From Candidatus Gottesmanbacteria bacterium (lineage in GTDB: Bacteria > Patescibacteriota > Microgenomatia > UBA10105 > UBA927), in NCBI GenBank assembly GCA_963701185.1, contig OY969569.1:318268-382267 (forward strand): a DNA stretch of 64,000 nt, given 5' to 3'. The translations under genes and the position numbers were made by a program. Below the pieces are notes generated by a model. The model did not search any database. It saw only the letters and a program-made list of their open reading frames with translations, and had not been told where the DNA came from. This document shows, one piece after another, positions 6,939 through 56,190 of the stretch; position 1 is the first letter of the stretch; each line of letters starts with the position of its first letter.

Positions 6939-7601
6939 ATGACACATGAATTTGATCAATCACTATTAACTGAATTTTATTCAAAATTATATGGCGGGAA
7001 CGCAAAGCATGATAGTCCGGAGTTTAGCCGAATACGCATGATCCGGTATCTCGCAAGCGAACTATCTGCCCGGGGAGAAAAAGTAAAAATATTGAATGTG
7101 GGCGCGGGCAGGCAATCTCTCGAAAAACAATTCCTTACTGCGTATCGACGGATGGGGTGGATAAAAAATCTATCGTTTGTCACCGTTGATATAGCGAATA
7201 TTATTCAGTATAAGCTACTTGCAGCACATTCATCTACGGTGAGGCACGTTCAAGCAAACGCTCTTCAATTACCCTATCCGGATGATACATTTGATTTCGT
7301 TATTAGCAATTTGGCAATCGATTTTCTTCCACACTCGGCAATCGGCGAAGCATCGAGAGTGCTAAAAAAAGAGGGAGACGCCGTGTTTCATTTTCATCAT
7401 CCAACTCTTACCGATAATCCGCCCGTTCATCCGAGCATCGTTGCATTTTGGAGCTATCTTCGCACCAATAACGTGTTGTTTCAAAATGAACAACAAATAC
7501 ATGAAACGTTGCAGCAATACGGCCTTCAAACACATTCTACGCATATAGCCACCGATGGCATTGACCGTTGGTGGGAAGTCCATGCGAAAAAATCGGCGTG
7601 A
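6939..7601 (+). CDS. Class I SAM-dependent methyltransferase.
   Basis: Motif I is ILNVGAGRQ and the post-I region is DFVISNLAIDFL. The track ORF start at 6855 lies inside the tRNA, so I take the ATG at 6939 (MTHEFDQ). Confidence 0.65.
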   Translation: MTHEFDQSLLTEFYSKLYGGNAKHDSPEFSRIRMIRYLASELSARGEKVKILNVGAGRQSLEKQFLTAYRRMGWIKNLSFVTVDIANIIQYKLLAAHSSTVRHVQANALQLPYPDDTFDFVISNLAIDFLPHSAIGEASRVLKKEGDAVFHFHHPTLTDNPPVHPSIVAFWSYLRTNNVLFQNEQQIHETLQQYGLQTHSTHIATDGIDRWWEVHAKKSA

Positions 7602-7624
7602 ACGTAGCATGACGGTAAAAACAT

Positions 7625-9223
7625 TTACTTCGCTACGCGATAAATCGCCATATAGCTGTTGGTATAAATCGGCGTGAGAGAGGCGGGCAGATTCTTCGTG
7701 AATGAATAGGCCACAACGCAGGAAATCCCGTTGGAAGAAAGAATCTGCAATTTTTGCGCCATTGGTGTCGCATCGGCAAAAAAGTCCGTCACTTGCCGCT
7801 CTTTGATCAAATAGTCTATCGTCGCATATTGATTGACAATAAATGCCCTGCGGCCGGTCAGTCCCGTAAACGAGATATGAAACGGCCAGATGACGAGGCA
7901 GGTCTCCTGGGGACCGATGCGTTTTTCGGCCTCCCGATACGCATCCAGCACCGTATTCGGCAGAAAATAATAGGCATTCCACTGTTGGAACGTGGCACGG
8001 GCAACCGCCTGCTGAACGGTCGGCGCAATGGTACATGCGAGAATGATTGCCGTTATCCCGACCCGAATCACATTGTAAAAAGATGGTTTGAAGCGTTTGC
8101 CAAACGCTTCGATGAGGACTGCGGCGGCACATGCCATCGTCAGCGTCGGAACAACGGAAAGGAACCGGACGTTGAGAACCGCGATAAGGGACGGAATGGG
8201 TGATAAAAAGAGCCCCCAGGAAATAAGCGTGAAGACGACAATCATCTGGCGGGCCCGGATGCGTGCGGATACAAAGAGCGGCAAACCGACGACTCCCAGA
8301 AGGACAACCGGGCCGTTGACCTGAAAGAATTTCAGGATGGTCATGTGGACCTGCTGTGTCGCTTCCCATGTAATGATCCAGCTAAACGGCGGATGAGACA
8401 ATAGTGTCCGTAAATATGCCGCGTACGGAACGGCTCCGGCTCCTATGAGGAGCAGTGCAGGGAAGAATTCTGAGTTCATGCCTTCCTTTACCCAAAACAC
8501 TGCGACCGTCGCAAGCACGACTAACACGAGCGGCGTCTGCGTGCTGGCAAGCAGGAATCCGGAAAGTACAAATAGTGCCCACGTCGTGAAGAAACGGGAA
8601 CGGGGGATACGAGTGGAACTCGCCAACAGAAGAAGCGTGCCGACTAGGACGGTTTGCGCCAAAAGATGATGCGGAATACTGGAAAATCGGGTAAACGGTT
8701 CACCGTAGTTATACCAGGACCAGTACGATTGCAGCGTCCATCCGTTGGGCGTGCGGTTCAGGTACGGCCACGCGTTGCTTGTCAGAAACAAAATATAGGC
8801 GATCGCGCTTCCTGATCGGGACGGTACAGCCATGCGTATGAGTCGATACGAAAAGAAAAGCAACAGGATGGTTAAACCGAGGATAAGAAGCTGATACCCG
8901 AGGATGTTGGAAATACCCAACACACTAAACACACGACCGGAAAGCACATAAAACCAGTGGTAAAACACCCGTGTCGTTGACTCCGGGGTGTTGATATCCA
9001 TCGATGTCAGCCAGCGGAGTTTCCCCTGAGCCATATAGGACAGGTAGTAATAGTAATCCAGAGAATAATGGACGGCTCCGGCGAATGTCGTTCCGGGAGC
9101 TTGCTTCCAGACGCCGGCGATGTAGGGGCTGAAGACAAGAAGCGCATACAATGCCGAAACGCCAATAATAAACATACGACTCAAGTATACTACAGAAGAA
9201 TTCCCCGAAGAGTGACTCCCCAT
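7625..9223 (-). CDS. Polytopic integral membrane protein (GT-C-like or unknown family).
   Basis: It is 532 aa with more than 10 hydrophobic helices. I recognise no soluble catalytic motif. Confidence 0.5.
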   Translation of the reverse strand: MGSHSSGNSSVVYLSRMFIIGVSALYALLVFSPYIAGVWKQAPGTTFAGAVHYSLDYYYYLSYMAQGKLRWLTSMDINTPESTTRVFYHWFYVLSGRVFSVLGISNILGYQLLILGLTILLLFFSYRLIRMAVPSRSGSAIAYILFLTSNAWPYLNRTPNGWTLQSYWSWYNYGEPFTRFSSIPHHLLAQTVLVGTLLLLASSTRIPRSRFFTTWALFVLSGFLLASTQTPLVLVVLATVAVFWVKEGMNSEFFPALLLIGAGAVPYAAYLRTLLSHPPFSWIITWEATQQVHMTILKFFQVNGPVVLLGVVGLPLFVSARIRARQMIVVFTLISWGLFLSPIPSLIAVLNVRFLSVVPTLTMACAAAVLIEAFGKRFKPSFYNVIRVGITAIILACTIAPTVQQAVARATFQQWNAYYFLPNTVLDAYREAEKRIGPQETCLVIWPFHISFTGLTGRRAFIVNQYATIDYLIKERQVTDFFADATPMAQKLQILSSNGISCVVAYSFTKNLPASLTPIYTNSYMAIYRVAK

Positions 9224-45058: not shown

Positions 45059-45072
45059 ACCATTAAACGCGG

Positions 45073-45145
45073 TGCCGAGACTAGGAGTTGCACCCAGATA
45101 ACATGTTTTTCAGACATGCGCCTTGACTACCTCGGCCATCTCGGC
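45073..45145 (-). tRNA. tRNA-Phe-like (anticodon GAA), atypical and possibly degenerate.
   Basis: The acceptor is GCCGAGA/TCTCGGC with discriminator A. The anticodon stem-loop is CATGT-CTGAAAA-ACATG. It has a non-canonical 3-bp D-stem with an 11-nt loop, and a T-loop TGCAACT with G at position 55. Confidence 0.45.
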
Positions 45146-45149
45146 AATC
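45124..45149. repeat. Direct repeat, copy A: the first 22 nt of the Phe-like tRNA plus 4 nt of leader.
   Basis: The sequence tgactacctcggccatctcggc+aatc recurs at 45218-45246 with a GGC insertion. Confidence 0.75.
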
Positions 45150-45217
45150 GAAAATCCATTGTTGTCTCTATTATTTAGTTGTATCTCGCGCAAGCTGCCG
45201 CTTCGCCTTGTCCCGCA

Positions 45218-45246
45218 AGGGGACTCGTGACTACCTCGGCCATCTC
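45218..45246. repeat. Direct repeat, copy B, of the Phe-like tRNA 5' segment.
   Basis: The sequence is tgactacctcggccatctcggcGGCaatc, 72 bp from copy A. Confidence 0.75.
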
Positions 45247-45289
45247 GGCGGCAATCCGTATTTTCTCGTATTTTACGATATTTAGCAAG

Positions 45290-45315
45290 CTGAACACATA
45301 AAGACCGGAGGTAAA
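45290..45315 (-). terminator. Hairpin terminator downstream of the minus-strand gene 45345-46028.
   Basis: It is an aaagaccgg/ccggtcttt stem with an 8-nt loop, U-rich on the minus strand. Confidence 0.4.
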
Positions 45316-45344
45316 TCCGGTCTTTATGGTAAAAAGCGCAACGG

Positions 45345-46028
45345 TTACGGATTTATTTGCGTCGAAATATCATAAAAACGCAATTGTACGAGCTTTAATC
45401 CACTATTATCGTAGTTCCAATAATAATCTTTCAAAGCATCGTTGAACAAATTGTACCGTTCAACCGCTCCGTCACCGTTTATGTCTGCATAGATATACAG
45501 CAGTATGCTGCTCACATTGGTAAATTTACTGCCACCGGTATTTCGTACCATCAACATGGATTGCACAGAACACCATAATTCACCTGTGGTCGGATCTGTG
45601 GCACAGGGCGTTGTTGTCGATTTCCCACCCGGCTTACCGAGAGCGCGCGCCCACACGGAATATGTCGTGACCCCGTCATTTGTGGGATCGGGATTGGGCA
45701 ACTGAAACGATGCGCCGTTGTCGTCAGTACAATTTCCGTCGATCACCGCAAAATCTCCTTCTTTCAGACCAATTTTACAGTTCCCCTGTAACGGAACAAA
45801 TATTCTGTGCCCCTGACTACCGGTCATATCAGCAGTTTTTCCTTTTGGTACACCTATAATATTTAAATTGTAATGCGCACCTGCAGGCGCGTTGTTGCCC
45901 GCTCTTGCCCGCATTTCCGTCGATTTAATATAGGCATTGAAGTACCAAATGAATCCGAGAATGACAAGAAGTGTGATTCCTAAGAAATACCATGTGCGAC
46001 TATCGTAACTTATTGTCTTACGAGCCAT
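45345..46028 (-). CDS. Membrane-anchored secreted hypothetical protein.
   Basis: It has an N-terminal TM helix and a Cys-containing extracellular domain, with no motif. Confidence 0.35.
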   Translation of the reverse strand: MARKTISYDSRTWYFLGITLLVILGFIWYFNAYIKSTEMRARAGNNAPAGAHYNLNIIGVPKGKTADMTGSQGHRIFVPLQGNCKIGLKEGDFAVIDGNCTDDNGASFQLPNPDPTNDGVTTYSVWARALGKPGGKSTTTPCATDPTTGELWCSVQSMLMVRNTGGSKFTNVSSILLYIYADINGDGAVERYNLFNDALKDYYWNYDNSGLKLVQLRFYDISTQINP

Positions 46029-46123
46029 TTGTATTCACCTCCTCTCCTATACTCTCTACTAGTAGTCTGAGAAATATATGAGAGAAAGTCAAGAGCAGCG
46101 TCTTCTGTTATAATCTGTTAATT

Positions 46124-47152
46124 ATGCACAATACATTGCATCCGCTTTCCGTTGCGATTTTATACTACGCCGGAACGCACGAAGATGATGAAGACACCAT
46201 TGCCGGCGTCAAAGGAATAGAGGAGTCTCTCAAACGCACAGGACATCCGGTTACAAAAATCATCGTTACAAAACAAAATTGGAAACAAGCTCTTACGACG
46301 CCGGGCGATGTTGTGTTTAACTTTGTTGAAGACGACACGTGGGAACTGTACGAAAAAGTGGCGTTCGGTTTGGAACGATTGGGGAGAGCCCAAGTCGGAC
46401 ATGATATTGCAGGTCTCCCGTATGCCGTCCGCAAATCTCCGATGAAACTCCTGATGCAAAAAATGCATATCGCGACGCCGGACTTTACAATTTTTTCCGC
46501 ACATTCCAAAACGATTGATCAGGGCAGTCTCCGATTTCCGATCATCATTAAACCATGCAATCAACACGCAGGAATCGGTATTTCCCAGGAATCAGTTGTC
46601 ACCAATAAAGACGACTTGGAAAAAAAGGTGAAGCAGAGTATTCGGATATACTCGGGTGAGGTGATTGCCGAAGAATATATACAGGGTCGGGAAATTCATG
46701 TCACGATACTCGGGAACGGCACCCGCCTCACCGTACTTCCATACTGTGAAGTAGCATTCAGCGGAAAATTTAAAAATCACTGGAACGTATATACGTATGA
46801 CGCCAAATGGGCCAAAAAAACATGGGAATATGCCGATGCCAGGGTGTGTGCGCCTGCAAAAATTTCTTCAGATCTTCAAAAAAAAATTAAAATGCTCGCC
46901 GTATTTGCGTACCGTACGTTCACATGCCGCGACATCGCGCGGTTTGATGTCCGGGTTGATGAAAAAGACACTCCGTTTCTCGTGGACATCAACATGAACC
47001 CCAGCATCAACGTTTATGATGATCAGGATGCCACAATCACCTCGATATACGCCCGCGGCTGGACGTACGATCAGTTCATCGAAAAACTTCTTGCCATAAC
47101 ATACGAACGCGTGTATGGCAGTCAATTGAAAGACAACCTGTTAAGGAAATAA
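46124..47152 (+). CDS. ATP-grasp enzyme of the D-alanine--D-alanine ligase family.
   Basis: The ATP-grasp motifs are PIIIKPCNQHAGIGIS and EEYIQGREIHVTILGN. Confidence 0.55.
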   Translation: MHNTLHPLSVAILYYAGTHEDDEDTIAGVKGIEESLKRTGHPVTKIIVTKQNWKQALTTPGDVVFNFVEDDTWELYEKVAFGLERLGRAQVGHDIAGLPYAVRKSPMKLLMQKMHIATPDFTIFSAHSKTIDQGSLRFPIIIKPCNQHAGIGISQESVVTNKDDLEKKVKQSIRIYSGEVIAEEYIQGREIHVTILGNGTRLTVLPYCEVAFSGKFKNHWNVYTYDAKWAKKTWEYADARVCAPAKISSDLQKKIKMLAVFAYRTFTCRDIARFDVRVDEKDTPFLVDINMNPSINVYDDQDATITSIYARGWTYDQFIEKLLAITYERVYGSQLKDNLLRK

Positions 47153-47469
47153 ATACCCACACTGATGACGAGCACCCAGAAAACTGCCTGAACATTGAGC
47201 AGTTCTTTTACCGGAGTTTTTGAGGCCAAACCGGCGACAAAATAGCCAAAAATCGCACTCCCGCCAGCCCAGATAGGGATAAACAACCGGAGCGTCTGTC
47301 CGCGGTCCTGAAGTTTAAAAATAAAAATCCACACAAGGACGGCAGCAACGACGGCATACACGAAAAACGCCGCATTTTTATGATGGCTCTCCACATACCG
47401 CTGGTAAAAAATATACGCCAGCGTGTCGGCAAAAAACGATGCGGCAAACAAAAGTATAGTATCTCGCAT
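47122..47469 (-). CDS. Small hypothetical membrane protein.
   Basis: It is 115 aa with four hydrophobic helices. Confidence 0.3.
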   Translation of the reverse strand: MRDTILLFAASFFADTLAYIFYQRYVESHHKNAAFFVYAVVAAVLVWIFIFKLQDRGQTLRLFIPIWAGGSAIFGYFVAGLASKTPVKELLNVQAVFWVLVISVGIYFLNRLSFN

Positions 47470-47472
47470 GGG

Positions 47473-47544
47473 TGCCCGCTGAGGGATTTGAACCCCCGAC
47501 CACTCGCATGTAAAGCGAATGCTCTACCGCTGAGCTAAGCGGGC
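47473..47544 (-). tRNA. tRNA-Val (anticodon TAC).
   Basis: The acceptor is GCCCGCT/AGCGGGC, the D-arm is TAGCTCAGCGGTAGAGC, the anticodon loop is TTTACAT and the T-arm is GGGTTCAAATCCC. Confidence 0.85.
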
Positions 47545-47704
47545 AGAAATCTTCTTGTGCACTCAATGATGTGCAGCTTGAACACATTATACACGGAATG
47601 GATGGGTTTAGACAAAGGTACTTAGCCTTGTTTGACCGTGTAGGGTAAACGACGATTCTATTGCTTTATGCCTCAAAACAGTATAAATTACCTATCGCTG
47701 CCCA

Positions 47705-48643
47705 TTGAACATGGTAATACAGTCAAAAAAGGTCTGGGCTAAGGTTTCTTCAGTTTTTCCTTTTGTTAAACGAAACGCCACGCTTGTTGGGGTTCTAGCG
47801 TTTATTAGCTTGATGCAAGCCTTTAATTTTTGGAATCCAATCTTGAATTGGATTGGTAATATCCTATTTGAATTCCAAAAGGTCATTATTGCTCCATGGA
47901 TATCACCATTTGGCATATGGTTTTTCGTTTTTGTAGTAATAGCGATATTAGTTTATCGTGTGTCTAAGGATCATGGGTATTTGAGAAAAGTCGCCGGAGA
48001 ATTTTACGATGATTTTGAAACTGGTCTATGCAAATGGGATTACAAAGGCGATTGGTTTGTAGAGGAGGAAAATGGTAAACGACTACTAAGCGTTGCTAAT
48101 TCTGGAATTGGAGGATTCACGAAGAAAGGATTTAACTGGACTGATTATGAATTTAGCTTTGAAACAAAGGTTATTAAAATTGCATCCGGTTGGGTAATAA
48201 GAGCAAATGCCAGCGATTATTTTATGGTGCAATTATATTTGAATGGTGATTCTGCCTACGTTTATAAACTAAGACCTCATTATCACAAACTTGAAGGAGG
48301 AACAGAAATTTGGCTACCTGAAGACAACAACTCCGTAGATTTGTCTAAAATAGCACTAGAAAAGGAAATAAAATTACTCCAATGGGTCAAAGTTAAAATT
48401 ACCGTTGAGGGCAATCAAGTAGATATTTATCTTGATGGAAAACACGCTTTACACTATTTAATTACTACGGTTGGGGTATCAATAAGCAAAAAATTTACGC
48501 TCAAAGACAATTTAGGAAAAGAATTTGAAGCCACCACAAGTGAAGTTGTCCTTTTGGGCAGCAATGCCGCAGGTAGGGTAGGTTTTAGATGTGGAGATGG
48601 AGAACATGCACATTTTAGAAATATAAAGGTTAAACCACTATAA
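47705..48643 (+). CDS. Membrane-anchored DUF1080 (3-keto-disaccharide hydrolase/LamG-like) domain protein.
   Basis: It has N-terminal TM helices, and the C-terminus ends ...GFRCGDGEHAHFRNIKVKPL as in DUF1080. Confidence 0.5.
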   Translation: MNMVIQSKKVWAKVSSVFPFVKRNATLVGVLAFISLMQAFNFWNPILNWIGNILFEFQKVIIAPWISPFGIWFFVFVVIAILVYRVSKDHGYLRKVAGEFYDDFETGLCKWDYKGDWFVEEENGKRLLSVANSGIGGFTKKGFNWTDYEFSFETKVIKIASGWVIRANASDYFMVQLYLNGDSAYVYKLRPHYHKLEGGTEIWLPEDNNSVDLSKIALEKEIKLLQWVKVKITVEGNQVDIYLDGKHALHYLITTVGVSISKKFTLKDNLGKEFEATTSEVVLLGSNAAGRVGFRCGDGEHAHFRNIKVKPL

Positions 48644-48672
48644 ATTCATCACAACAGCTTACGAAGAATTAG

Positions 48673-48885
48673 TCACTTCAACTTCATCAACTCATCCAGT
48701 CGGATGCCTAGCACACGAGCGATTTTGGCGATGATTTTCAGTGTTGGGTTCCGTTTACCGCCCTCAATCCGGTTAAGGTAGGAAAAATCAATCCCTGCTC
48801 TTTCAGCAAGTTTTTCTTGAGTTACCCCCTTGGACCTTCGGATTTTCCGGAGCTTCATTCCGAATTTTTGTACTACCGTAGCCAT
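48673..48885 (-). CDS. XRE-family helix-turn-helix transcriptional regulator.
   Basis: The HTH is GVTQEKLAERAGIDFSYLNRIEGGKRNPTL. Confidence 0.85.
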   Translation of the reverse strand: MATVVQKFGMKLRKIRRSKGVTQEKLAERAGIDFSYLNRIEGGKRNPTLKIIAKIARVLGIRLDELMKLK

Positions 48886-49003
48886 GACTTGATTATGGTC
48901 AATTGACGCCGCGGAGTTTATTGTTTATAGTCAATATTATGAGGCTATGGTATATTCAGATTATTGACTCTAATAGGATGTTTGTGTCTGACAACTAATT
49001 AAT

Positions 49004-50038
49004 ATGAAAGTAAAAGGGTTGATCTTGCAAGCGCTTAAGTTTGGTTTATTCCTATTGTTCTCTCCAATCATATTGCCCTTCATGTTACTCGGTAGTATTA
49101 TTCGGGATTTTAGAAAGCGTGGTAAAAAATCCCTCATAGTCAAGCTGACGTTCGTATTCTTTATCATTAGTACCATTTGGTTATTTATTTTTAGCACACC
49201 GCAAACAGATGGATCTTCAATGGAACCTGATCTTCACAATGGGGAGTATGTGATTCTTAACAAAATAGATTATAAATTCAAAACTCCTGCAAGAGGCGAC
49301 ATTATTGTATATAAAAATCCCCAAAAGGATAACTACCCAGACTATATGGGTAAAATTATTGCAATTTCTGGGGAAATACTTCAAATAAAAGAAGGTGATG
49401 TCTATTTGAACGGCGCATTACTTCATGAACCCTATGCCACCGGAGCAACAATGCCTTCTGGTGAAGAAGGGGAAATAAAAGAAGGAGAGGAATTGAAAAT
49501 CCCCACAGATATGGTTTTTGTTTTAATGAACAATCGCCAACACGCTATTGATAGTCGCTCCTTTGGCCCAGTACCAAAAGATCACATAATTGGTAAAGTC
49601 TATAAAATCCCCGGATTCTACTTTCTCTCTGGTGTATCAAAACCACCACGCACGGGGATGAGTGGTGATGATTTATTCAACGTAGGACTATACTTCCTAA
49701 ATTTGAAGAATACAACAAAAGCAGAGGAGTATTTTATCAAATCTGGAACTGAATTTAAGTATGTTCCTGCTTTCAATGAGCTTGGGTGGATATATTTTCA
49801 AAAGAAGGACTACGAAAAAGCGCGAATTTATTATAAAAACGCTTTGGATATTGAGCCGGAAAACCCGTATGCCCTACAGAGCATGGGTTACGCCTATTGG
49901 AATACTGGAGATACAAAGAAGGCAGAAGAATATCTTAAAAAAGCCTTGATTGCTTACGAAAAAGCAAATAACCCCGATTTAAAAACGAACTTTGAAGAAC
50001 TCAAGGCAATGATAAAGGAAAATGGTATAGTTCCATAA
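49004..50038 (+). CDS. lepB: Signal peptidase I fused to a C-terminal TPR repeat domain.
   Basis: The N-terminal TM is followed by the catalytic Ser box GSSMEPDL, GDIIVYKNP and the Lys box (KIIAISGE). Tandem TPRs follow, YFIKSGTEF...ALDIEPENPYALQSMGYAYWNTGDTKKAEEYLKKAL. Confidence 0.75.
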   Translation: MKVKGLILQALKFGLFLLFSPIILPFMLLGSIIRDFRKRGKKSLIVKLTFVFFIISTIWLFIFSTPQTDGSSMEPDLHNGEYVILNKIDYKFKTPARGDIIVYKNPQKDNYPDYMGKIIAISGEILQIKEGDVYLNGALLHEPYATGATMPSGEEGEIKEGEELKIPTDMVFVLMNNRQHAIDSRSFGPVPKDHIIGKVYKIPGFYFLSGVSKPPRTGMSGDDLFNVGLYFLNLKNTTKAEEYFIKSGTEFKYVPAFNELGWIYFQKKDYEKARIYYKNALDIEPENPYALQSMGYAYWNTGDTKKAEEYLKKALIAYEKANNPDLKTNFEELKAMIKENGIVP

Positions 50039-50176
50039 ACAATATAACATTGCTTTTGATAAAGAACAGTCACTTCAAAAACATATATAGCATGGATAAT
50101 TGACCGAGTAGATGTAGCTAGAATTGGAAGAAAATGGAAGTAGTTGAAGACAATCGGATGATATCATCAACCTTGC

Positions 50177-50434
50177 ATGAAAAATATCTTAAACCGGGAA
50201 ATTACACCCAAATTTATACGTTTGTTTTCGTATAGATTCTTTAAAGAAACGGCTTTAGTTGTTATTGTATTGCTTCTTTGTGTTTTGATATGGCAAAACC
50301 AAAACTCCTATGTTGATAATGGCTACTTTGTCTTGAGGATAAACAATATAACTGGTAGTGCTTGTATAATTGACACGGGTGAGTATGCTTTTCCTTACGA
50401 TGCAAATCTCATTTTTTCAAAATGCAAGAAGTAA
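50177..50434 (+). CDS. Small membrane protein.
   Basis: It is 85 aa with one TM helix, in an AT-rich setting. Confidence 0.25.
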   Translation: MKNILNREITPKFIRLFSYRFFKETALVVIVLLLCVLIWQNQNSYVDNGYFVLRINNITGSACIIDTGEYAFPYDANLIFSKCKK

Positions 50435-50670
50435 AAATACCTATGAAAAATAGTAAAAATAATTTCGCAACTATTGGCATAGTATTGGGTGTACTATCAA
50501 TATTTTTTGCATGGATTGGGATAATACCCCTTTCTGGATTGGTGGTGAATACGATAGGAATTGTTAAATCAAGGAAATTAGAAGGAAAAGGTAAGTGGAT
50601 GGCGATAATTGGATTAGTGCTATCAGCGTTGTACACACTCGTGTATCTTAATAGATATGGTTATATCTAA
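50422..50670 (+). CDS. Small 2-TM membrane protein (DUF4190-like).
   Basis: Its two TM helices are GIVLGVLSIFFAWIGIIP and MAIIGLVLSALYTLVYL. Confidence 0.3.
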   Translation: MQEVKIPMKNSKNNFATIGIVLGVLSIFFAWIGIIPLSGLVVNTIGIVKSRKLEGKGKWMAIIGLVLSALYTLVYLNRYGYI

Positions 50671-51235
50671 AAAAACTTCCAGAGTAATCATCGTTTTTCA
50701 GCTTGTCGTTATTCTATTTTTATCAGGTGTATGCTTTTTCCAGTGGAAAGCAACAAAAATACTCACTGAAAAGTGTCAGTCTCCAAATAGATACGGTGTA
50801 AGTCCAATGCAGAAACAGTCTACTGAAAGTGGTGATTTGACAGAAATAAATCCCCCTACTGCCATAGACCTTGATCCAAAACAACTTGAACAATACTACC
50901 AAGTTTATAAAAATAATTTCGTTTTGTATCTGCGCAAGGCGCTTGATGCATACCTTGCAAACGATAGCTCTGGAGTGAATATCTCCATGGCAGCAGTTCA
51001 GGAAGATCGTAGAGACGGTATCATTACAGGTTTAGATGCGTTTGACAAGAACTACTACAAAAGTAAATTCATCGTTTTAACGATTAATGACAGTATAGCC
51101 GGTGGCAAAGATATTCAGATAATCTTTCAGGATAAACCAGACAGAATTTTTTACGTTTGGGTATATCAGCTCGCTGATGAAAGTTATGAATTACGAGCAT
51201 TTAATTCAAAAGAGTACTTTGAAGAGAGAAGATGA
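50657..51235 (+). CDS. Hypothetical protein with an N-terminal TM anchor.
   Basis: It is 192 aa with no motif. Confidence 0.3.
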   Translation: MVISKKTSRVIIVFQLVVILFLSGVCFFQWKATKILTEKCQSPNRYGVSPMQKQSTESGDLTEINPPTAIDLDPKQLEQYYQVYKNNFVLYLRKALDAYLANDSSGVNISMAAVQEDRRDGIITGLDAFDKNYYKSKFIVLTINDSIAGGKDIQIIFQDKPDRIFYVWVYQLADESYELRAFNSKEYFEERR

Positions 51236-51520
51236 AGATGATATTTGAGGCGTATAAAAACTTTATCAATGATAAGGAACACGCACTCTAAACATCATTC
51301 AAATTTTAAGATATAGGCTACGGGCACTTCAACGTTGATAAACGTGATTGTGCGATTATATTATTACTTACATACTCATGATCGTATCTTCTATATGTCA
51401 CATAGATATATAGGACAACATACATACGTCTGATTGATTTGGTGTGTATAATCAAGTATTAGATAAAGAAACAGTATGTTTTTCTTAATCATGAAATAGG
51501 ATAAACGAAGGAGAAGAAGT

Positions 51521-51916
51521 ATGAATATACCAGTTCGTGTTATTGCTCAAGGACGTGAACCAGTCAGGGATAAGTACATTGGACTTCTTTTTGAGAATTT
51601 AAAAAAAGATGTTAAATTTGAGGCACTTATACGATCTGCACAGAAAACACTCGGGCTTGATGTATTACCCCATACCTCAAATGGTACTGAATATAAGAAA
51701 CACACAGCATTACTACGATCAAATGGTTTGCAGAGAAACACAAAGGGCAAACTTGGTTTTACGGGTTTTATTAAAATTCCCTTACTGGATGATGAAGTAG
51801 ACAAGATTCTACAAAAGTATCCGTTTATGAACGATTGGAGAGAGGGGTTAAAAGAGTTTGTGCTTGGCGGAAACTTATTATTCACGATGATAGTTCAAAC
51901 ATCAGGCTTCGCGTGA
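51521..51916 (+). CDS. Hypothetical protein (island cargo).
   Basis: It has a good RBS (aaggagaag) and an upstream TATAAT. It overlaps the next ORF in another frame. Confidence 0.3.
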   Translation: MNIPVRVIAQGREPVRDKYIGLLFENLKKDVKFEALIRSAQKTLGLDVLPHTSNGTEYKKHTALLRSNGLQRNTKGKLGFTGFIKIPLLDDEVDKILQKYPFMNDWREGLKEFVLGGNLLFTMIVQTSGFA

Positions 51917-52326
51917 GAAATAGCAAATATAATACGGGGTACGACACAGACAAGATTAGTCAAAATTGCGTTATGATTCAGATTTCCGGCAAGATCTCAT
52001 GGAACGAACTTGAAGCGTGGATAACCCAACATAAAAATCAGATAGCGTGGCATACCCAAAGATTGCCGAATTATTCACTACGAAGTTCAAGGAGAGCGAA
52101 CTACGAGCGGGACAGATTGGTTGTATATCTTTACTCTGATAAGTGGCAGTGGAAAAAGAGCTTTCCAAACATAGCTGATGAACTCAAGGATGGTTCGGAC
52201 AAAAACTCTTGAACAAGCATATAGAGACTTACACTGAAAATAGCCTACTAAAATTCCACAATTAAGGTAGTGGAGTACCGCTAATTACTGATACAGAATA
52301 GGGTCATATGCAGAAGGAGAAGCGTT

Positions 52327-52527
52327 ATGACCACTGAAACAACCTCACGATTCAAACCTCAATTTATCCCCTATAGGTGTACAAAGTGCAATGGCCACGG
52401 TTAAGTCAATTATGGCAGTCTTATATGCGAAGCCTGTGAAGGGACAGGAGTTTATAAAGTTCAGATTGCAGAAGCGGATGAAAAAGAAGAAGTAAAGGAG
52501 GATCATGGAATCACTTCGTAAAATCAA
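52327..52527 (+). pseudogene. DnaJ-type double CxxCxGxG zinc-finger mini-ORF interrupted by an in-frame TAA.
   Basis: The reading is MTTETTSRFKPQFIPYRCTKCNGHG-TAA-VNYGSLICEACEGTGVYKV..., with two CxxCxGxG repeats separated by a stop at 52402-52404. Confidence 0.3.
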
Positions 52528-52867
52528 TAAGCCTCTTACCTCGTTTGAGCTTATCACGATCCGCGGTGATCTTATCAAGGCAATAGATGAGTGTACTTAC
52601 TGGTTTGTGGAGTAACGGTGGGAGCGAGATAGAGATAAACGCCATATTTACAACGCAATTTGGGAAACGAAGAATAGGAAATATAAACAAGTCTTAGAGG
52701 AAGCCTATGCAAAACTTCATTGAACAGACACCAGAAGAAAAACTTATAGCGGAAGGACTAAGGGAAGTAGCAGAAACACTAAACAAGAATAATAGTGGGA
52801 CAGAAACTAAAGCGGGTGTATACACTTCGTTGAGATAGCAGAATAGGTAGAAAAATACCTACCAAAT

Positions 52868-53575
52868 ATGACAACAGCGCTTAAACTCGTTCTTGCAGTG
52901 GCTAAGTCAGGCAAACGAAAAAATAGGGTCATGTTATGGCTTTTGTTGGTAGGCGCTCACTCAAGCGGAAAAACAGATCTCGTACGGTTAATGAAGGACA
53001 ATTAGTCAGTATTAAGCTTTGATAATCTTACACTCAATTCTTTCATATCCGGTGAACGCACAACGGAAAAAGAAAAAGTACATGATTTGCTTCAGTTACT
53101 CAATAACAAGTGTCTGATAGTGAAGGATTGGACGGTTATATTTTCTCTTGATGAACGGATGACGAAAAAAATAATAGGCGATATGGTGGGGGCGTATGAC
53201 AAGTAGTTATCAAAGTTTTCCTCTCGCCGGGGCAATATCACCTATGATGCAGAGTTCTCTCACCTGGGGTGTATTACTCAGGCAACACTCAATAGACATC
53301 AAAATTATTTAAATATGATTGGGCCGCGTTTCTTATCTTATAGCATAGGAGAAATAACGTTAGATCAGGAAGAAAAGAGCTTCAAAGCAATATTTTCTAA
53401 TGAAGACAGAAGTGAAATAGAAAAATCAGTTGCCAAAAAAGTGAACGCCTATCTATCACAACTCAACAATGAGGATATATCGGCTGTAGGTGAATTATCA
53501 GAAGATGCGAAAAAATACCTACAGGTAGCTTCACGGATTATGGCTCGGGCAAGGGGAATTGTTATCATAAAATAG
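52868..53575 (+). pseudogene. Fragmented phage/plasmid primase-like (P4/D5/VirE-type) P-loop gene.
   Basis: Three consecutive frames give LWLLLVGAHSSGKTDLVRL, then ...LLNNKCLIVKDWTVIFSLDE..., then ...ITYDAEFSHLGCITQATLN... Stops and frameshifts separate them. Confidence 0.35.
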
Positions 53576-54072
53576 TACAAGTTTATCAACGATCTGAAAG
53601 AAGAAATATCCTACTACGAGCCACTTGATATACAGATAGAACAAACATGGCGAAGCGTACAACAGTTAATACTTCTGTCAAAATACCTTGCTTTTGTAAC
53701 AGGAAAATTACAAGTAGATCACGAAGAGCTATCAATTATCAGAGAAGTAGTTTTATCCTCTATGCGCGCAGACAGAGCGCAGGCGATCAAGGCTCTCGCC
53801 AGTCGGTCAGATGGAAGTATTACGGCAAAAGAATTATCGGATCAGATGGACAAATAGTCAAAAACTTACAGGCGGCTACTTGAAGAGCTTGTTTTTCTCA
53901 AATTGATAAAAAAGATTACCGGATCAGGTCAAATGGCAGCAACTTATACAGTTATTGATGAGTTTAGAAGTTTAGTTACAGTCAGCAAGCGGGAGTTTTT
54001 GTACTCCTATAGTCAACAGGGTAACGACGATAAAACAAGTGTATCTGGTATTGGATCAGAATAGGAGGCCGT

Positions 54073-54423
54073 ATGACACAATACCAGGATCTTGAATGGG
54101 TAGTAACTCGGTGTGAACACGAGTTTGCTAACAACAAAAACAGAAGGATCTCGGCACTGTTTAGAGATATACGAAGAAACAAAAACTATTCGCTCCTCGG
54201 AGATTATTTTCTTTTTTGGGCAATCGCACAAGCATTGAAAAACAAGAACATAAAACGTTCACGAGCAAATTTTTCATATGCACTCATGCAATCTGATGAA
54301 TACAAGGCCTTACAAAAGCGGGACAAGGTGGCATGGATAAGCACCTTTATGGAGATGGCTTCTGGCGAGATGAAAAATATATACCATGCCTCTAAAAGGG
54401 GCGAAAGGCCTGAAAAGGTATGA
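54073..54423 (+). CDS. Hypothetical protein (island cargo).
   Basis: It is 116 aa with no motif. Confidence 0.25.
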   Translation: MTQYQDLEWVVTRCEHEFANNKNRRISALFRDIRRNKNYSLLGDYFLFWAIAQALKNKNIKRSRANFSYALMQSDEYKALQKRDKVAWISTFMEMASGEMKNIYHASKRGERPEKV

Positions 54424-54578
54424 AGGGCTACCTATGACAGTTACTGAACTACGGAAAAAACATCCACAGGAAACGGAACACTGGCAAGATGAACAGTGCC
54501 AGCAGTATTGTCGGTCTTTAGAGGTGCTATCCAACGTGTTTATTGATTATGTAGAGAAGCAATTACAAAAGAAGACAG

Positions 54579-55880
54579 TTGACACGTATGCAAACTAATG
54601 CCAATAATGAAGTCATGGAGAAGAAAGCAGTTGCATATGTCCGTATAAGCACGGAAGAACAATCTACGTTTTCTATTGCTCAACAGACAGAAGCGGTGAA
54701 ACGCATGGCAAAGATGCAGGGATATACGCTTCCTGATTCAGCTATCTTCATTGATGAGGGGTTTTCCGCAAAAACGACAAACAGGCCAGCTCTCATCAAG
54801 ATGCTTTCATTCTGTTCCCAAAAGAAAAATGGCATTACCGCTCTTATAGCGTACAAAATTGACCGGATGAGCAGGGATACGGCTGATTACCTCGGTATCA
54901 TGAAGGCGCTTGCTTCGCACGGAGTGAGGTTTATTTCCTGTACCGAATCAATTGAAGATTCTCCTTCCGGTGAATTCCTTTCAACAATTCTTGCAGCCGC
55001 CGCCAGATATGACAATGCAGCGAAGGCTGAAAGGGTATCGGCAAGCATAATCCAAAGGATCAAATCCGGACTGCCTCATGGAAAGGCAAAAATCGGATAT
55101 CTAAACCAAACACTGTCAGACAGAAGACGAATCATTGTCAAAGACCTGAACGCTTTGAACGCATACAGGAAGCCTGGAAGCTCATGGAAACAGGGGCATA
55201 TACACTTGAGAGCATCGCGAAATTTTTGAATAGCTGGAAAATCACAACAAAAAAAGGAACGCATTTATTCAAACTCACTGAACAACAGGTGCAGCGTATC
55301 TTTGCCGAATAAGACATATTGCGGGTATGCGATAAGCAAAAAACATGGACTTGAAATAAAAAGCGACCAAGTGCCACAGATGATAAGTGAAGATACTTTT
55401 TTTAAAGTCAAATTGATTCTTGCCGGAAGAAGAACAACAACAGGACTGTATCAACGCTTACGGCCGGAGTTTCCTTTGCGTGGCTTTGTACGGTGTCCAA
55501 AATGCAACAGCCCTCTCCATGCTGGATTCAGCAAAGGTAAAGCCAAATATTATGGATACTATTTCTGTAAAACACCTGGTCACGTCACAATACCAGACGA
55601 GACTATTGATGAAACGTTTGTGGATTTGCTCAAAGTTCTTACCCCCTCGCCCATGTTCCGGCGGGATTTCCTGGATGAAGTAAAACGAAAATGGAACGAC
55701 AAGTACATGATGTTTGTGAAACAGCACGAGAATGTACAGGAGAAAATTGACATACTGAAAGCGTTCAAACATAAGATAGCAGAAAAGAATTTGTCCGGTA
55801 CCTATACCGACGAATTTACCAAAGAACAACTGGAGAAGGTAGATATGGAGATACTGGCTATAAAGACCAGTACAGAGTGA
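54579..55880 (+). pseudogene. Large serine recombinase (integrase) disrupted by two 1-nt frameshifts.
   Basis: Frame 1 holds the resolvase catalytic domain (VAYVRISTEEQ...IDEGFSAKTTNRPAL). Frame 2 continues the recombinase domain (ERFERIQEAWKLMETGAYTLESIAKFLNSW...QRIFAE). Frame 3 holds PNKTYCGYAI plus the zinc-ribbon CPKCNSPLH...YYFC. The shifts lie near 55145 and 55305; an A7 run occurs within frame 2 at about 55245-55251. Confidence 0.8.
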
Positions 55881-56108
55881 ATCCAAGCTCGCCCGCCTTG
55901 ATATAGAGGTCGTGGTGGCATTCATGAATAGCTTCCTAGAGGACATATCAAAAGCCTTTATTGAAGCAAAATCGTTGGAACAAAAGAGGGAGTTGGTGTG
56001 TTCAATTTTCCCTAACGGGCTTGTTTTTCAACAATCAAAACTTGAACACCTTGGATTGGTTGACTGGATGCTCTATACCCAAAAAGTACAGCCTCAAATT
56101 TCAATGAG

Positions 56109-56190
56109 TGCAGACGACAGGAGTTGAACCTGCACCCCTCACGGGATACGCACCTCAAGCGTACGCGTATGCCAATTCCGCCACGTCTGC
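56109..56190 (-). tRNA. tRNA-Leu (anticodon GAG).
   Basis: It is type II. The acceptor is GCAGACG/CGTCTGC, the anticodon loop is TTGAGGT, it has a long variable arm, and the T-arm is GGTTCAACTCC. Confidence 0.85.

What the first reader, a model, noticed from the sequence alone, without database searches (positions are those of the whole stretch)
47545..56108. Decayed tRNA-associated integrative island (low GC) with a pseudogenised integrase and primase
Between tRNA-Val (47473-47544) and tRNA-Leu-GAG (56109-56190) the composition drops to visibly AT-rich. The gene content changes to mobile-element cargo. It includes an XRE regulator, a DUF1080 protein, a signal-peptidase-TPR fusion and several tiny TM proteins. 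It also holds a DnaJ-type zinc-finger ORF with an in-frame TAA, a primase-like P-loop gene in three frames and a large serine recombinase in three frames that abuts the 3' end of tRNA-Leu. This is the classic architecture of an element integrated at a tRNA 3' end, but every mobility gene is broken. The element appears immobilised and eroding while its cargo ORFs remain intact. I could not find the expected distal direct repeat of the tRNA-Leu 3' end.
Basis: partly seen in the sequence, partly recalled or inferred. Interest (0 to 1): 0.55.

Follow-up and report, generated by a model that had tools for sequence, protein, structure and literature searches.

The report
Hypermutated integrative element at tRNA-Leu
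An 8.5-kb mobile element sits in a tRNA-Leu gene of a tiny groundwater-type bacterium, and it was disabled mainly by a burst of one-strand C-to-A changes at a three-base motif rather than by slow decay; an otherwise identical intact copy exists in the same metagenome.

Summary
The island is real. It spans window 47557-56112, has GC 0.38 against 0.48 in the host, and lies between tRNA-Val and tRNA-Leu(GAG) in a Gottesmanbacteria-like (Patescibacteria) genome. It carries an XRE regulator, a DUF1080 protein, an S26-TPR protein, an MCM-like AAA+ helicase and a 512-aa large serine recombinase whose 3' end overlaps the tRNA. Relatives with a recombinase at least 90% identical occupy the same tRNA-Leu(GAG) site. 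All share a 5-bp core, GTGCA, at both ends. This is why no long direct repeat exists.

The breakage is not ordinary erosion. Two independent assemblies from public metagenomes hold an intact copy. Against it the window differs by C>A 59, C>T 7, C>G 6, four C deletions and only seven other changes. Every cytosine change is on the + strand. About half of all YCS motifs in 52231-54383 are hit, and almost none elsewhere. All six in-frame stops in the helicase are TCG>TAG, and the zinc-finger TAA is TCC>TAA.

My best reading is an enzyme-made lesion on one exposed DNA strand, fixed by error-prone bypass. This would be a kataegis-like event in a bacterial mobile element. The main rival is an artefact or DNA modification in the single long-read assembly that carries the mutated allele.

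The parts
47469..47545 (-). tRNA-Val(TAC). It flanks the element on the left and was 11 nt from tRNA-Leu before insertion.
   Evidence: ARAGORN, Rfam, junction reading
47557..47561 (+). attL core GTGCA. Similarity to related elements starts exactly here.
   Evidence: window, L066, L068 and L070 all start GTGCACTCAATGATG..., with unrelated DNA to the left
47557..47631 (+). Conserved left arm of the element (the P' arm).
   Evidence: blastn 80-83% to internal positions of L066, L068 and L070
47705..48643 (+). Membrane-anchored DUF1080 / 3-keto-disaccharide-hydrolase-fold protein (cargo, intact).
   Evidence: Pfam PF06439, E 1.4e-8. No window-specific difference in 47561-49627 in the three-way alignment with the Logan contig L005; the 310-aa form is on record in Logan.
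48673..48885 (-). XRE-type HTH regulator. It is shared at 83-85% nt identity with related elements.
   Evidence: Pfam HTH_3, E 2e-18; blastn
49004..50038 (+). Signal peptidase S26-TPR fusion (cargo). The ORF is intact but carries two cytosine changes (49628 C>T, 49650 C>G).
   Evidence: Pfam; three-way alignment
50177..50670 (+). Two small membrane ORFs (85 aa, and 82 aa with DUF4190), both intact.
50657..51235 (+). ORF truncated to 192 aa. It is 211 aa in the intact copy. The cause is CCC > -AG at 51222-51224.
51421..51498 (+). Non-coding piece conserved with L068 and L070, upstream of their replication genes.
   Evidence: blastn 81%
51521..52212 (+). Unknown-function gene, about 248 aa when intact, split by a C deletion at 51876.
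52231..54383 (+). Dense hypermutated tract. There are 55 C>A plus a few C>T and C>G on the + strand, and 43-61% of YCS motifs are hit per 500-nt bin between 52000 and 54000 (29% in 54000-54500).
52327..52521 (+). DnaJ-like CxxC zinc-finger ORF (64 aa when intact). TCC>TAA at 52402-52404.
52505..52723 (+). 72-aa ORF truncated at codon 37 (TCC>TAA, 52613-52615).
52707..54076 (+). MCM-like AAA+ helicase with a C-terminal winged helix (456 aa when intact). Damage: C deletion at 52824; TCG>TAG at codon starts 52844, 53003, 53204, 53573, 53855 and 54062; Walker-A Pro>His.
54073..54423 (+). 116-aa ORF of unknown function. Reading frame intact, four cytosine changes.
54588..56127 (+). Large serine recombinase (512 aa when repaired; Resolvase + Recombinase + Zn-ribbon). 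Frameshifts: C deletion at 55144, A insertion at 55308, G insertion at 55870. The stop codon lies inside tRNA-Leu.
56108..56112 (+). attR core GTGCA, which forms the 3' end of tRNA-Leu.
56108..56190 (-). tRNA-Leu(GAG), the integration target. It is intact.

Best explanation
**What it is.** This is an 8.55-kb integrative element of Microgenomates (Patescibacteria). A large serine recombinase inserted it into the last bases of tRNA-Leu(GAG) at a GTGCA core. The element carries its own MCM-like helicase replication module.

**What happened.** The copy in this chromosome was not worn down gradually. One DNA strand of its replication module (52231-54383, with thin shoulders from 49.6 to 55.3 kb) suffered a burst of lesions at cytosines in the motif Y-C-S. 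Equivalently, these are guanines in S-G-R on the other strand. About half of those sites became A, a few became T or G, and a few were deleted. The burst created eight premature stop codons and destroyed invariant residues of the helicase. Single-base indels also broke the recombinase, so the copy can no longer excise or replicate on its own.

**Inferred mechanism.** A sequence-selective enzyme acted on that strand while it was single-stranded, during transcription, replication or repair of the element. Candidates are a cytosine deaminase followed by uracil excision, a glycosylase, or a base ADP-ribosyltransferase. Translesion synthesis then fixed the lesions, mostly as C>A.

**Status of each step.** Shown: the element, its ends, the mutation spectrum, the strand, the motif and the tract. 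Inferred: that the differences are real DNA changes, and that an enzyme working on single-stranded DNA caused them.
For: **The element**
- tRNAs, low GC and gene content are confirmed.
- The repaired recombinase has all three large-serine-recombinase domains.
- Recombinases at least 90% identical overlap tRNA-Leu(GAG) by 20 nt in L066 and L068-L070.
- Similarity between elements begins and ends exactly at GTGCA.
- More distant relatives place the recombinase against tRNA-His or tRNA-Gln.

**The burst**
- The Logan contigs L005 and L001, and the independent ENA contig L004, agree with each other at every site that is specific to the window.
- Spectrum, intact copy to window: C>A 59, C>T 7, C>G 6, G>A 3, T>A 2, and no G>T.
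- Strand asymmetry has p = 4e-18, and clustering has p = 9e-25.
- Motif hit rates: CCC 57%, CCG 60%, TCC 48%, TCG 45%, GCN 0 of 94, all others 10% or less. The odds ratio is 24, p = 1e-25.
- The host flank (2.4 kb) and the first 2 kb of the island show no differences.

**Polarity.** The window has stop, His, Gln or Thr where 38 homologues have invariant Ser or Pro: P85, P192, P314 and S384.

**No selection.** The synonymous: nonsynonymous: stop counts are 21:36:6, against 47:59:13 possible. Hit and unhit motif sites are randomly interspersed.

**Localisation.** A motif index picks out only 51-54 kb in the whole 64-kb window. The window copy is the only outlier among about 60 related helicase genes.

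**Plausibility of the C>A outcome.** Fusions of a deaminase with uracil-DNA glycosylase give C-to-A in E. coli (PMC10717943, citing Zhao et al. 2021).

**Against a routine nanopore artefact.** Methylation-induced miscalls are C>T and G>A, and they follow a motif genome-wide (PMC11610603).
Against: - The mutated allele rests on one deposited assembly, the 995-kb contig in NCBI/ENA. None of its broken ORFs occurs in the Logan assembly of the run that holds the identical host flanks. I could not see any reads.
- No deaminase, glycosylase or ADP-ribosyltransferase was found in the island (Pfam and PADLOC). The rest of the genome is outside the window.
- Known natural deaminase hypermutation gives C>T, not C>A. 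Known bacterial DNA deaminases do not show a YCS preference: SsdA is context-independent and DddA prefers 5'-TC (PMC12494967, PMC13346905).
- None of about 60 related elements shows the signature, so recurrence is unproven.
- The tract does not start at the likely start of the operon (about 51.5 kb), so the link to transcription is only suggestive.
Confidence: 0.55

Rival explanations
1. Assembly or base-calling artefact, or a DNA modification. On this view the chromosomal copy is really intact, and the A calls come from systematic miscalls in the long-read data behind the 995-kb contig. A strand-specific base modification or damage in this tract could cause such miscalls.
For: - The mutated allele exists only in one assembly.
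- Two other assemblies give the intact allele. One of them comes from a run whose contigs match the host flanks 100%.
- Several of the indels lie in short C or A runs.
- Nanopore modification errors are known to be strand-specific (PMC11610603).
- A hit rate of about 50% at motif sites could reflect a consensus torn between two read orientations.
Against: - The errors are confined to about 3 kb of a 64-kb window in which long host ORFs are intact.
- Reported methylation miscalls are transitions (C>T, G>A), and they follow a motif across the whole genome (PMC11610603).
- The noisy contig L004 shows what low-coverage noise looks like in these data: random substitutions and many indels, not 93% cytosine changes.
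- L004 also calls C correctly in the same sequence contexts.
- A consensus built from both read orientations should not fix 70 miscalls that arise on one strand.
- A tract-limited, strand-specific modification would itself be unusual biology.
Confidence: 0.27
2. Oxidative guanine damage (8-oxoG or hydantoins) on the - strand, in a lineage with weak MutY/MutM repair, gave G>T on that strand. This reads as C>A on the + strand.
For: - G:C>T:A is the classic 8-oxoG outcome (established knowledge).
- A purine 3' of the target G (GG at 29%, GA at 22%, GT at 5%, GC at 0%) resembles the known preference for oxidation of the 5' G.
- The minor G>C and G>A outcomes fit hydantoin lesions.
Against: - TGG and AGG on the - strand (CCA and CCT on the + strand) are hit at only 6% and 3%, against 60% for CGG. 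The GG rule does not predict this.
- Damage to duplex DNA should affect both strands, yet no G>T occurs among 497 + strand G positions.
- Loss of half of all target guanines in 2 kb, with none in the flanks, is hard to reach chemically.
Confidence: 0.07
3. Ordinary slow pseudogenisation of an old immobilised island.
For: The island has broken mobility genes, low GC, and some intact cargo ORFs.
Against: - An otherwise identical intact copy exists, with 5 substitutions (and 2 single-base insertions) that do not target cytosine in 8.1 kb.
- 94% of substitutions are cytosine changes on one strand at one motif.
- There is no excess of synonymous changes.
- The flanks show zero divergence.
Confidence: 0.03
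4. Mutagenic copying of one strand by an error-prone polymerase or reverse transcriptase, followed by replacement of the genomic tract. This would resemble a diversity-generating retroelement, but with cytosine rather than adenine as the mutated base.
For: - The tract is bounded and covers four co-oriented genes (zinc finger, p72, helicase, p116).
- Only the sense strand is affected.
- About 50% substitution at one template base recalls DGR adenine mutagenesis (established knowledge of DGRs).
Against: - No reverse transcriptase, template/variable repeat pair or accessory gene is present in the island.
- The changes create stop codons and destroy invariant residues, so they do not diversify a binding protein.
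- The strong dependence on neighbouring bases is not a DGR trait.
Confidence: 0.04
5. Stop-codon reassignment. On this view the element reads TAG as an amino acid and the helicase gene is functional.
For: All six in-frame stops of the helicase gene are TAG, and five of them lie in one frame.
Against: - The intact sibling has TCG at each position.
- The same gene also has a frameshift (C deletion at 52824) and Pro>His/Gln/Thr at invariant positions.
- Neighbouring genes are stopped by TAA.
- The recombinase is frameshifted.
Confidence: 0.01

Closest known systems
SCC-type elements (staphylococcal cassette chromosome) and SaPI-like islands
   Same: - A small integrative element that combines a large serine recombinase with an MCM-like (Cch/Rep-type) AAA+ helicase.
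- Site-specific insertion at the 3' end of a conserved gene, with only a few shared bases at the ends.
   Different: - The host is a Patescibacteria lineage.
- The target is tRNA-Leu(GAG), not rlmH.
- The helicase has no detectable sequence similarity to known families: no Pfam family above threshold and no match to solved structures.
- There is one recombinase gene, not a ccrAB pair.
APOBEC3/AID hypermutation and kataegis
   Same: - Strand-coordinated, clustered changes at cytosines that follow a pyrimidine.
- A large share of motif sites hit within a tract of a few kb.
- No sign of selection, and the result inactivates a mobile element.
   Different: - The outcome is 82% C>A rather than C>T or C>G.
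- There is an extra requirement for C or G at +1.
- The organism is a bacterium, and no deaminase has been identified.
Glycosylase base editors in E. coli (cytidine deaminase + UDG)
   Same: They convert cytosine on one exposed strand mainly to A in a bacterium, with C>T, C>G and indels as by-products (PMC10717943 citing Zhao et al. 2021; PMC9122597).
   Different: They are an engineered, Cas9-targeted tool with a window of a few bases. Here the event is natural, about 2 kb long and not guided.
Bacterial DNA-modifying toxins and defences (DddA, SsdA, DarT1/DarT2)
   Same: These are enzymes that damage bases of DNA, often single-stranded DNA. They can mutagenise survivors or block phage DNA (PMC7901873, PMC11825919, PMC12170906).
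   Different: DddA prefers 5'-TC in duplex DNA and gives C>T, and SsdA has no context preference (PMC13346905, PMC12494967). A YCS/SGR motif with a C>A outcome has not been described for any of them, to my knowledge.
Repeat-induced point mutation (RIP) in fungi
   Same: One copy of a duplicated mobile sequence is riddled with one type of cytosine mutation and gains stop codons, while flanking unique DNA is untouched.
   Different: RIP gives C>T on both strands, acts on repeats during the sexual cycle, and is eukaryotic. Here a single strand is affected and the outcome is C>A.

Membership tests
Integrative element with a large serine recombinase | Recombinase with Resolvase, Recombinase and Zn-ribbon domains | tested here: met
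   Pfam on the frame-repaired 512-aa protein: PF00239 at 2e-30, PF07508 at 9e-7, PF13408 at 2e-6. In the window the gene is split by three indels.
Integrative element with a large serine recombinase | Defined ends with a short common core instead of a long direct repeat | tested here: met
   GTGCA lies at 47557-47561 and 56108-56112. Similarity to L066, L068 and L070 starts and stops exactly there.
Integrative element with a large serine recombinase | Same target site used by independent relatives | tested here: met
   tRNA-Leu(GAG) is overlapped by 20 nt by the recombinase gene in L066 and L068-L070.
Integrative element with a large serine recombinase | Functional recombinase, so the element can move | tested here: not met
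   Three frameshifts at 55144, 55308 and 55870.
SCC/SaPI-like replicating islands | MCM/Cch-like AAA+ helicase | tested here: met
SCC/SaPI-like replicating islands | Integration at rlmH (SCC), or phage-dependent packaging genes (SaPI) | tested here: not met
   The target is tRNA-Leu(GAG). No terminase, capsid or packaging family was found.
   No primase domain is present in the 456-aa protein. Primase domains occur only as N-terminal fusions in some homologues.
Deaminase-type hypermutation (APOBEC/kataegis-like) | Strand-coordinated, clustered cytosine changes | tested here: met
   72 cytosine-site against 3 guanine-site substitutions, p = 4e-18. 61 of the 72 fall in 2.15 kb, p = 9e-25.
Deaminase-type hypermutation (APOBEC/kataegis-like) | Preference for a pyrimidine 5' of the target C | tested here: met
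   Base at -1: C 29%, T 22%, A 5%, G 0%.
Deaminase-type hypermutation (APOBEC/kataegis-like) | C>T (or C>G) as the main outcome | tested here: not met
   C>A 59, C>T 7, C>G 6.
Deaminase-type hypermutation (APOBEC/kataegis-like) | A DNA cytosine deaminase encoded by the host or a competitor | not testable with these tools
   Only 64 kb of the roughly 1-Mb genome is available. None was found in the island.
Diversity-generating retroelement | Adenine-specific changes, a template/variable repeat pair and a reverse transcriptase | tested here: not met
   The changes are at cytosine. No repeat pair was found. No reverse-transcriptase family was found in island ORFs.
Stop-codon-recoded mobile element (TAG read as an amino acid) | In-frame TAG in otherwise intact, conserved genes | tested here: not met
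   The TAGs replace TCG of the intact sibling. The same gene has a frameshift and has lost invariant Pro residues.
Nanopore methylation-induced consensus errors | Transition miscalls (C>T, G>A) at a methylation motif throughout the genome | tested here: not met
   82% of the cytosine changes are transversions to A. The signature is confined to 51-54.4 kb of the 64 kb. Reference behaviour is taken from PMC11610603. Reads were not available, so an unusual artefact is not excluded.
8-oxoG / MutY-type mutagenesis | G:C>T:A on both strands, with preference for the 5' G of any GG | tested here: not met
   No G>T on the + strand. TGG and AGG contexts are hit at 6% and 3%, against 60% for CGG.

The most novel reading that the evidence does not exclude
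A Patescibacteria cell, or a neighbour attacking it, has an activity that marks cytosines in Y-C-S (or guanines in S-G-R) on exposed single-stranded DNA of a replicating or transcribed mobile element. This converts about half of the marked sites to A in one pass. It would be a prokaryotic counterpart of APOBEC or RIP genome defence, with a new motif and a new outcome, caught here because the intact sibling element is still present in the same community.
Probability: 0.3. Interest if true: 0.85.

Novelty: new variant of a known kind. Interest (0 to 1): 0.64.

Why it matters
If the changes are real, this is a natural, dated snapshot of editing-type inactivation of a mobile element in bacteria. 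The unedited copy is available as a built-in control, and the event lies in a phylum with tiny genomes and little known about DNA repair or defence.

It gives a concrete motif (YCS>YAS), a strand and a tract length. With these, thousands of metagenome-assembled genomes can be searched for the same signature. Candidate enzymes such as deaminases, glycosylases and ADP-ribosyltransferases can be tested against it.

It also defines a family of small helicase-plus-serine-recombinase elements that target tRNA-Leu(GAG) in Microgenomates, with an exact attachment core.

If it turns out to be an artefact, it is a useful warning. A long-read consensus would then have fabricated stop codons and 'pseudogenes' in a localised, motif-specific way.

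Tried and rejected
- **Sequence families for the helicase.** Pfam, PHROGs and PADLOC gave nothing above threshold, and a profile search of solved structures found nothing. Only the fold search was informative.
- **Promoter and terminator scan of 51-55 kb.** The counts were no better than in shuffled sequence, so there is no evidence for tract boundaries set by transcription signals.
- **Repeats and iterons in the island.** Only short, chance-level pairs turned up. There is no origin-like array and no DGR-like repeat pair.
- **Rfam on the whole window.** It found tRNAs only.
- **Exact search for the tract.** A pattern allowing either allele found no hits in JGI metagenomes or IMG/VR.
- **Survey of about 60 related helicase loci.** I looked for in-frame stops or motif depletion and found no second case.
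- **Source record of the 995-kb contig.** I tried to retrieve it to learn the sample and the sequencing technology. Those three look-ups returned nothing. Literature searches for the accessions also returned nothing.
- **A long direct repeat of the tRNA-Leu 3' end.** The 7-mer TCAATGA occurs near both ends. It is better read as the two near-palindromic arms of attP around GTGCAC than as a target duplication.
- **TAG recoding.** I considered this first, because of the four TAGs in one frame. I dropped it after the alignment to the intact copy.

Full report
**1. The observation**

ARAGORN and Rfam place tRNA-Val(TAC) at 47469-47545 and tRNA-Leu(GAG) at 56108-56190, both on the - strand. GC drops from about 0.48 in the host to 0.34-0.42 between them. 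The island as a whole has GC 0.383, against 0.480 and 0.482 for the flanks.

Pfam confirms three of the cargo genes:
- an XRE HTH protein (48673-48885, - strand);
- a DUF1080/PF06439 protein (47705-48643);
- an S26 signal-peptidase-TPR fusion (49004-50038).

The Resolvase domain lies at 54579-55229 and the recombinase zinc ribbon at 55302-55880. Three-frame translation shows the recombinase spread over three frames. It also shows a zinc-finger ORF with an in-frame TAA.

The exception is the 'primase-like gene in three frames'. From 52868 to 54063 it is a single frame interrupted by four TAG codons.

**2. Host and element family**

UvrB from the window is 75-82% identical to its closest named relatives, which are Candidatus Gottesmanbacteria proteins. 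The window comes from a 995,214-nt contig held by NCBI and ENA. Long host ORFs are intact across the window.

- a C-terminal winged helix.

The gene is therefore a replicative MCM-like helicase, not a primase.

After frame repair the recombinase is 512 aa and has Resolvase, Recombinase and Zn-ribbon domains. Its stop codon (56125-56127) lies 20 nt inside tRNA-Leu.

Recombinases at least 90% identical occur in four other contigs: L066, L068, L069 and L070. Each overlaps tRNA-Leu(GAG) by the same 20 nt, within the same array of tRNA-Gln/Gly/Phe/Val … Leu(GAG)/Leu(CAG)/Leu(TAA). These islands share the following with the window; their cargo and replication genes differ:
- the recombinase, at 84% nt identity;
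- the XRE gene, at 83-85%;
- a 78-nt non-coding piece;
- the left end.

More distant relatives place the helicase-recombinase pair against tRNA-His or tRNA-Gln.

**3. The ends**

Alignment of the left ends shows that similarity between elements begins exactly at GTGCAC. This is window 47557, and the DNA to its left is unrelated in each element. The right ends run …TTTCAWTKA|GTGCAGACGA… into the tRNA.

The shared core is GTGCA, at 47557-47561 and 56108-56112. The joined ends would give TCAATGA-GTGCAC-TCAATGA, a near-palindrome. Before insertion, tRNA-Leu(GAG) and tRNA-Val were 11 nt apart.

This behaviour is typical of a serine recombinase, and it explains why no 15-25 nt repeat of the tRNA end exists. 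The ENA contig L004 (8546 nt) matches window 47561-56109, which is the element and nothing else.

**4. The main result**

The best homologue of the helicase (P0001, 94% identity) lies on a Logan contig from run ERR10755943. That contig, L001, equals window 52201-55650 and carries intact genes. Two further contigs from the same run complete the picture:
- L003 matches the host flank 45131-47528 at 100%.
- L005 covers window 47532-52205.

L004 comes from a different assembly. It agrees with the Logan contigs at every site that is specific to the window. Its own differences are scattered substitutions and indels typical of a low-coverage long-read consensus.

Relative to this intact sequence, the window differs as follows:

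| Change | Count |
|---|---|
| C>A | 59 |
| C>T | 7 |
| C>G | 6 |
| G>A | 3 |
| T>A | 2 |
| G>T | 0 |
| C deletions | 4 (51222, 51876, 52824, 55144) |
| A insertion | 1 (55308) |
| G insertion | 1 (55870) |

Ninety-four per cent of the substitutions remove a cytosine from the + strand. The strand asymmetry has p = 4e-18.

The changes are concentrated in one tract. There are 55 C>A in 52231-54383, thin shoulders at 49628-52200 and 54445-55308, and nothing in 47561-49627. Clustering has p = 9e-25.

The changes depend on a motif:

| Context on + strand | Fraction mutated |
|---|---|
| CCC | 57% |
| CCG | 60% |
| TCC | 48% |
| TCG | 45% |
| GCN | 0 of 94 |
| all other contexts | 10% or less |

The odds ratio for YCS against other cytosines is 24, with p = 1e-25. 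Inside the tract 47 of 92 YCS sites are changed, and changed and unchanged sites are randomly interspersed (runs test z = 0.6). A YCS/YAS index computed along the 64 kb singles out only 51-54 kb. Among about 60 related helicase genes, only the window copy is an outlier or carries internal stops.

**5. Polarity and consequences**

The window state is the derived one. It has stop, His, Gln or Thr where 38 homologues have invariant residues: Walker-A P85, P192, P314 and S384.

- All six in-frame stops in the helicase are TCG>TAG.
- The TAA in the zinc-finger ORF, and another in the 72-aa ORF, are double hits TCC>TAA.
- Synonymous: nonsynonymous: stop counts are 21:36:6, against 47:59:13 for all possible YCS>YAS changes. 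Codon positions are hit evenly.

There has therefore been no purifying selection since the event.

Apart from the cytosine changes, the two copies differ by five substitutions in 8.1 kb, and the host flank by none. The event is very recent.

The hypermutation explains only a small part of the low GC. It lowers island GC from 0.392 to 0.383, and tract GC from 0.421 to 0.393.

**6. Interpretation**

I considered TAG recoding first and rejected it. The intact sibling has TCG at those positions, and the same gene carries a frameshift and has lost invariant prolines.

*Oxidative G>T damage.* This fits the transversion type and the purine 3' of the target G. It does not explain three things:
- the complete strand asymmetry;
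- the near-absence of hits at TGG and AGG;
- the loss of half the targets in 2 kb with none outside.

*A DGR-like copying error.* This lacks a reverse transcriptase and a repeat pair.

*Best fit.* A sequence-selective enzymatic lesion on one strand while it was single-stranded, fixed by translesion synthesis, fits best.
- The pyrimidine at -1 is typical of DNA cytosine deaminases.
- Deaminase plus uracil glycosylase yields mainly C>A in E. coli, with C>T, C>G and indels as by-products (PMC10717943 citing Zhao et al. 2021; PMC9122597).
- Guanine ADP-ribosylation of phage DNA by DarT1 is another known route to strand-specific base lesions (PMC11825919, PMC11125620).
- Known bacterial deaminase toxins do not match the motif. 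SsdA has no context preference, and DddA prefers 5'-TC (PMC12494967, PMC13346905).

The tract covers the co-oriented genes for the zinc finger, p72, the helicase and p116, and the coding strand is the one hit. This is compatible with exposure during transcription or element replication. However, promoter scans were uninformative, and the upstream gene of the module is largely spared. This step is therefore inference.

**7. The main caveat**

The mutated allele is supported by one deposited assembly only. All of its broken ORFs are found in NCBI/ENA on the 995-kb contig and never in Logan. I could not access reads or learn the sequencing platform.

Points against a routine artefact:
- Strand-specific miscalls caused by DNA modification are documented for nanopore data, but they are transitions at motifs spread over the whole genome (PMC11610603).
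- The signature here is confined to about 3 kb.
- The noisy contig L004 calls the same contexts correctly.
- A consensus built from both read orientations should not fix some 70 miscalls that arise on one strand.

I put the probability of an artefact or modification at about one quarter. A tract-limited, strand-specific modification would itself be unusual.

**8. Verdict**

The element is a new member of a known kind. It is a small island with a serine recombinase and an MCM-like helicase, SCC/SaPI-like in logic, targeting tRNA-Leu(GAG) in Microgenomates.

Its mode of inactivation is a localised, one-strand, YCS-specific burst dominated by C>A. That is a new variant of editing-type hypermutation if it is real. 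Read-level verification would settle the question.

Noticed in passing
window 45071-47545; L003 1-320; L068 3113-3483: The Logan contig from the same run diverges from the window inside tRNA-Phe, left of 45130. In L068, tRNA-Phe and tRNA-Val are adjacent and the D-Ala-D-Ala ligase gene lies after tRNA-Leu(GAG). In the window, the ligase and two ORFs sit between tRNA-Phe and tRNA-Val. The whole tRNA array looks like a hotspot for insertion and rearrangement.
   Followed up: partly
L066 413-3743: In L066 the related element's true left end (GTGCAC) lies 3.3 kb from tRNA-Val. The DNA in between carries glycosyltransferase and CmpB-like genes. It may be host DNA or the remnant of an earlier insertion.
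   Followed up: no
window 51421-51498: A 78-nt non-coding stretch is 81% identical to a stretch upstream of the replication genes in L068 and L070. It may be a shared regulatory site or origin.
   Followed up: no
L004 (ENA ERZ25039513 contig_14625), equal to window 47561-56109: A separate 8546-nt contig corresponds to the element and nothing else, and it carries the unmutated allele. This suggests an excised circular form, or copies in other contexts. The contig ends do not overlap, so circularity is unproven.
   Followed up: partly
window 52201-52205: An A-run has 5 A in the window and 6 A in L004, and the two Logan contigs break exactly here. With 6 A the upstream gene reads 248 aa. This hints that both alleles, or a length polymorphism, exist in the reads.
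   Followed up: partly
window 52220-54400: Within the tract, changed YCS sites show further context effects. C is disfavoured at -2 (4 of 22) and at +2 (6 of 20), A is favoured at +2 (12 of 13), and G is favoured at -2 (13 of 17).
   Followed up: partly
L024 5315-6637: A related, intact helicase gene from Hainich groundwater has the second-highest YCS-depletion index (1.87, against 2.64 for the window). This may be compositional, or it may be an older, selected trace of the same process.
   Followed up: no
window 7362-9223: Two long overlapping ORFs lie on the - strand (335 and 532 aa). The 532-aa ORF has no Pfam hit (the 335-aa ORF was not scanned), and the AT skew is strong (0.25) at 8-9 kb.
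   Followed up: no
window 1002-2465: A 487-aa protein with a C-terminal dockerin type I domain is encoded in a Patescibacteria genome.
   Followed up: no
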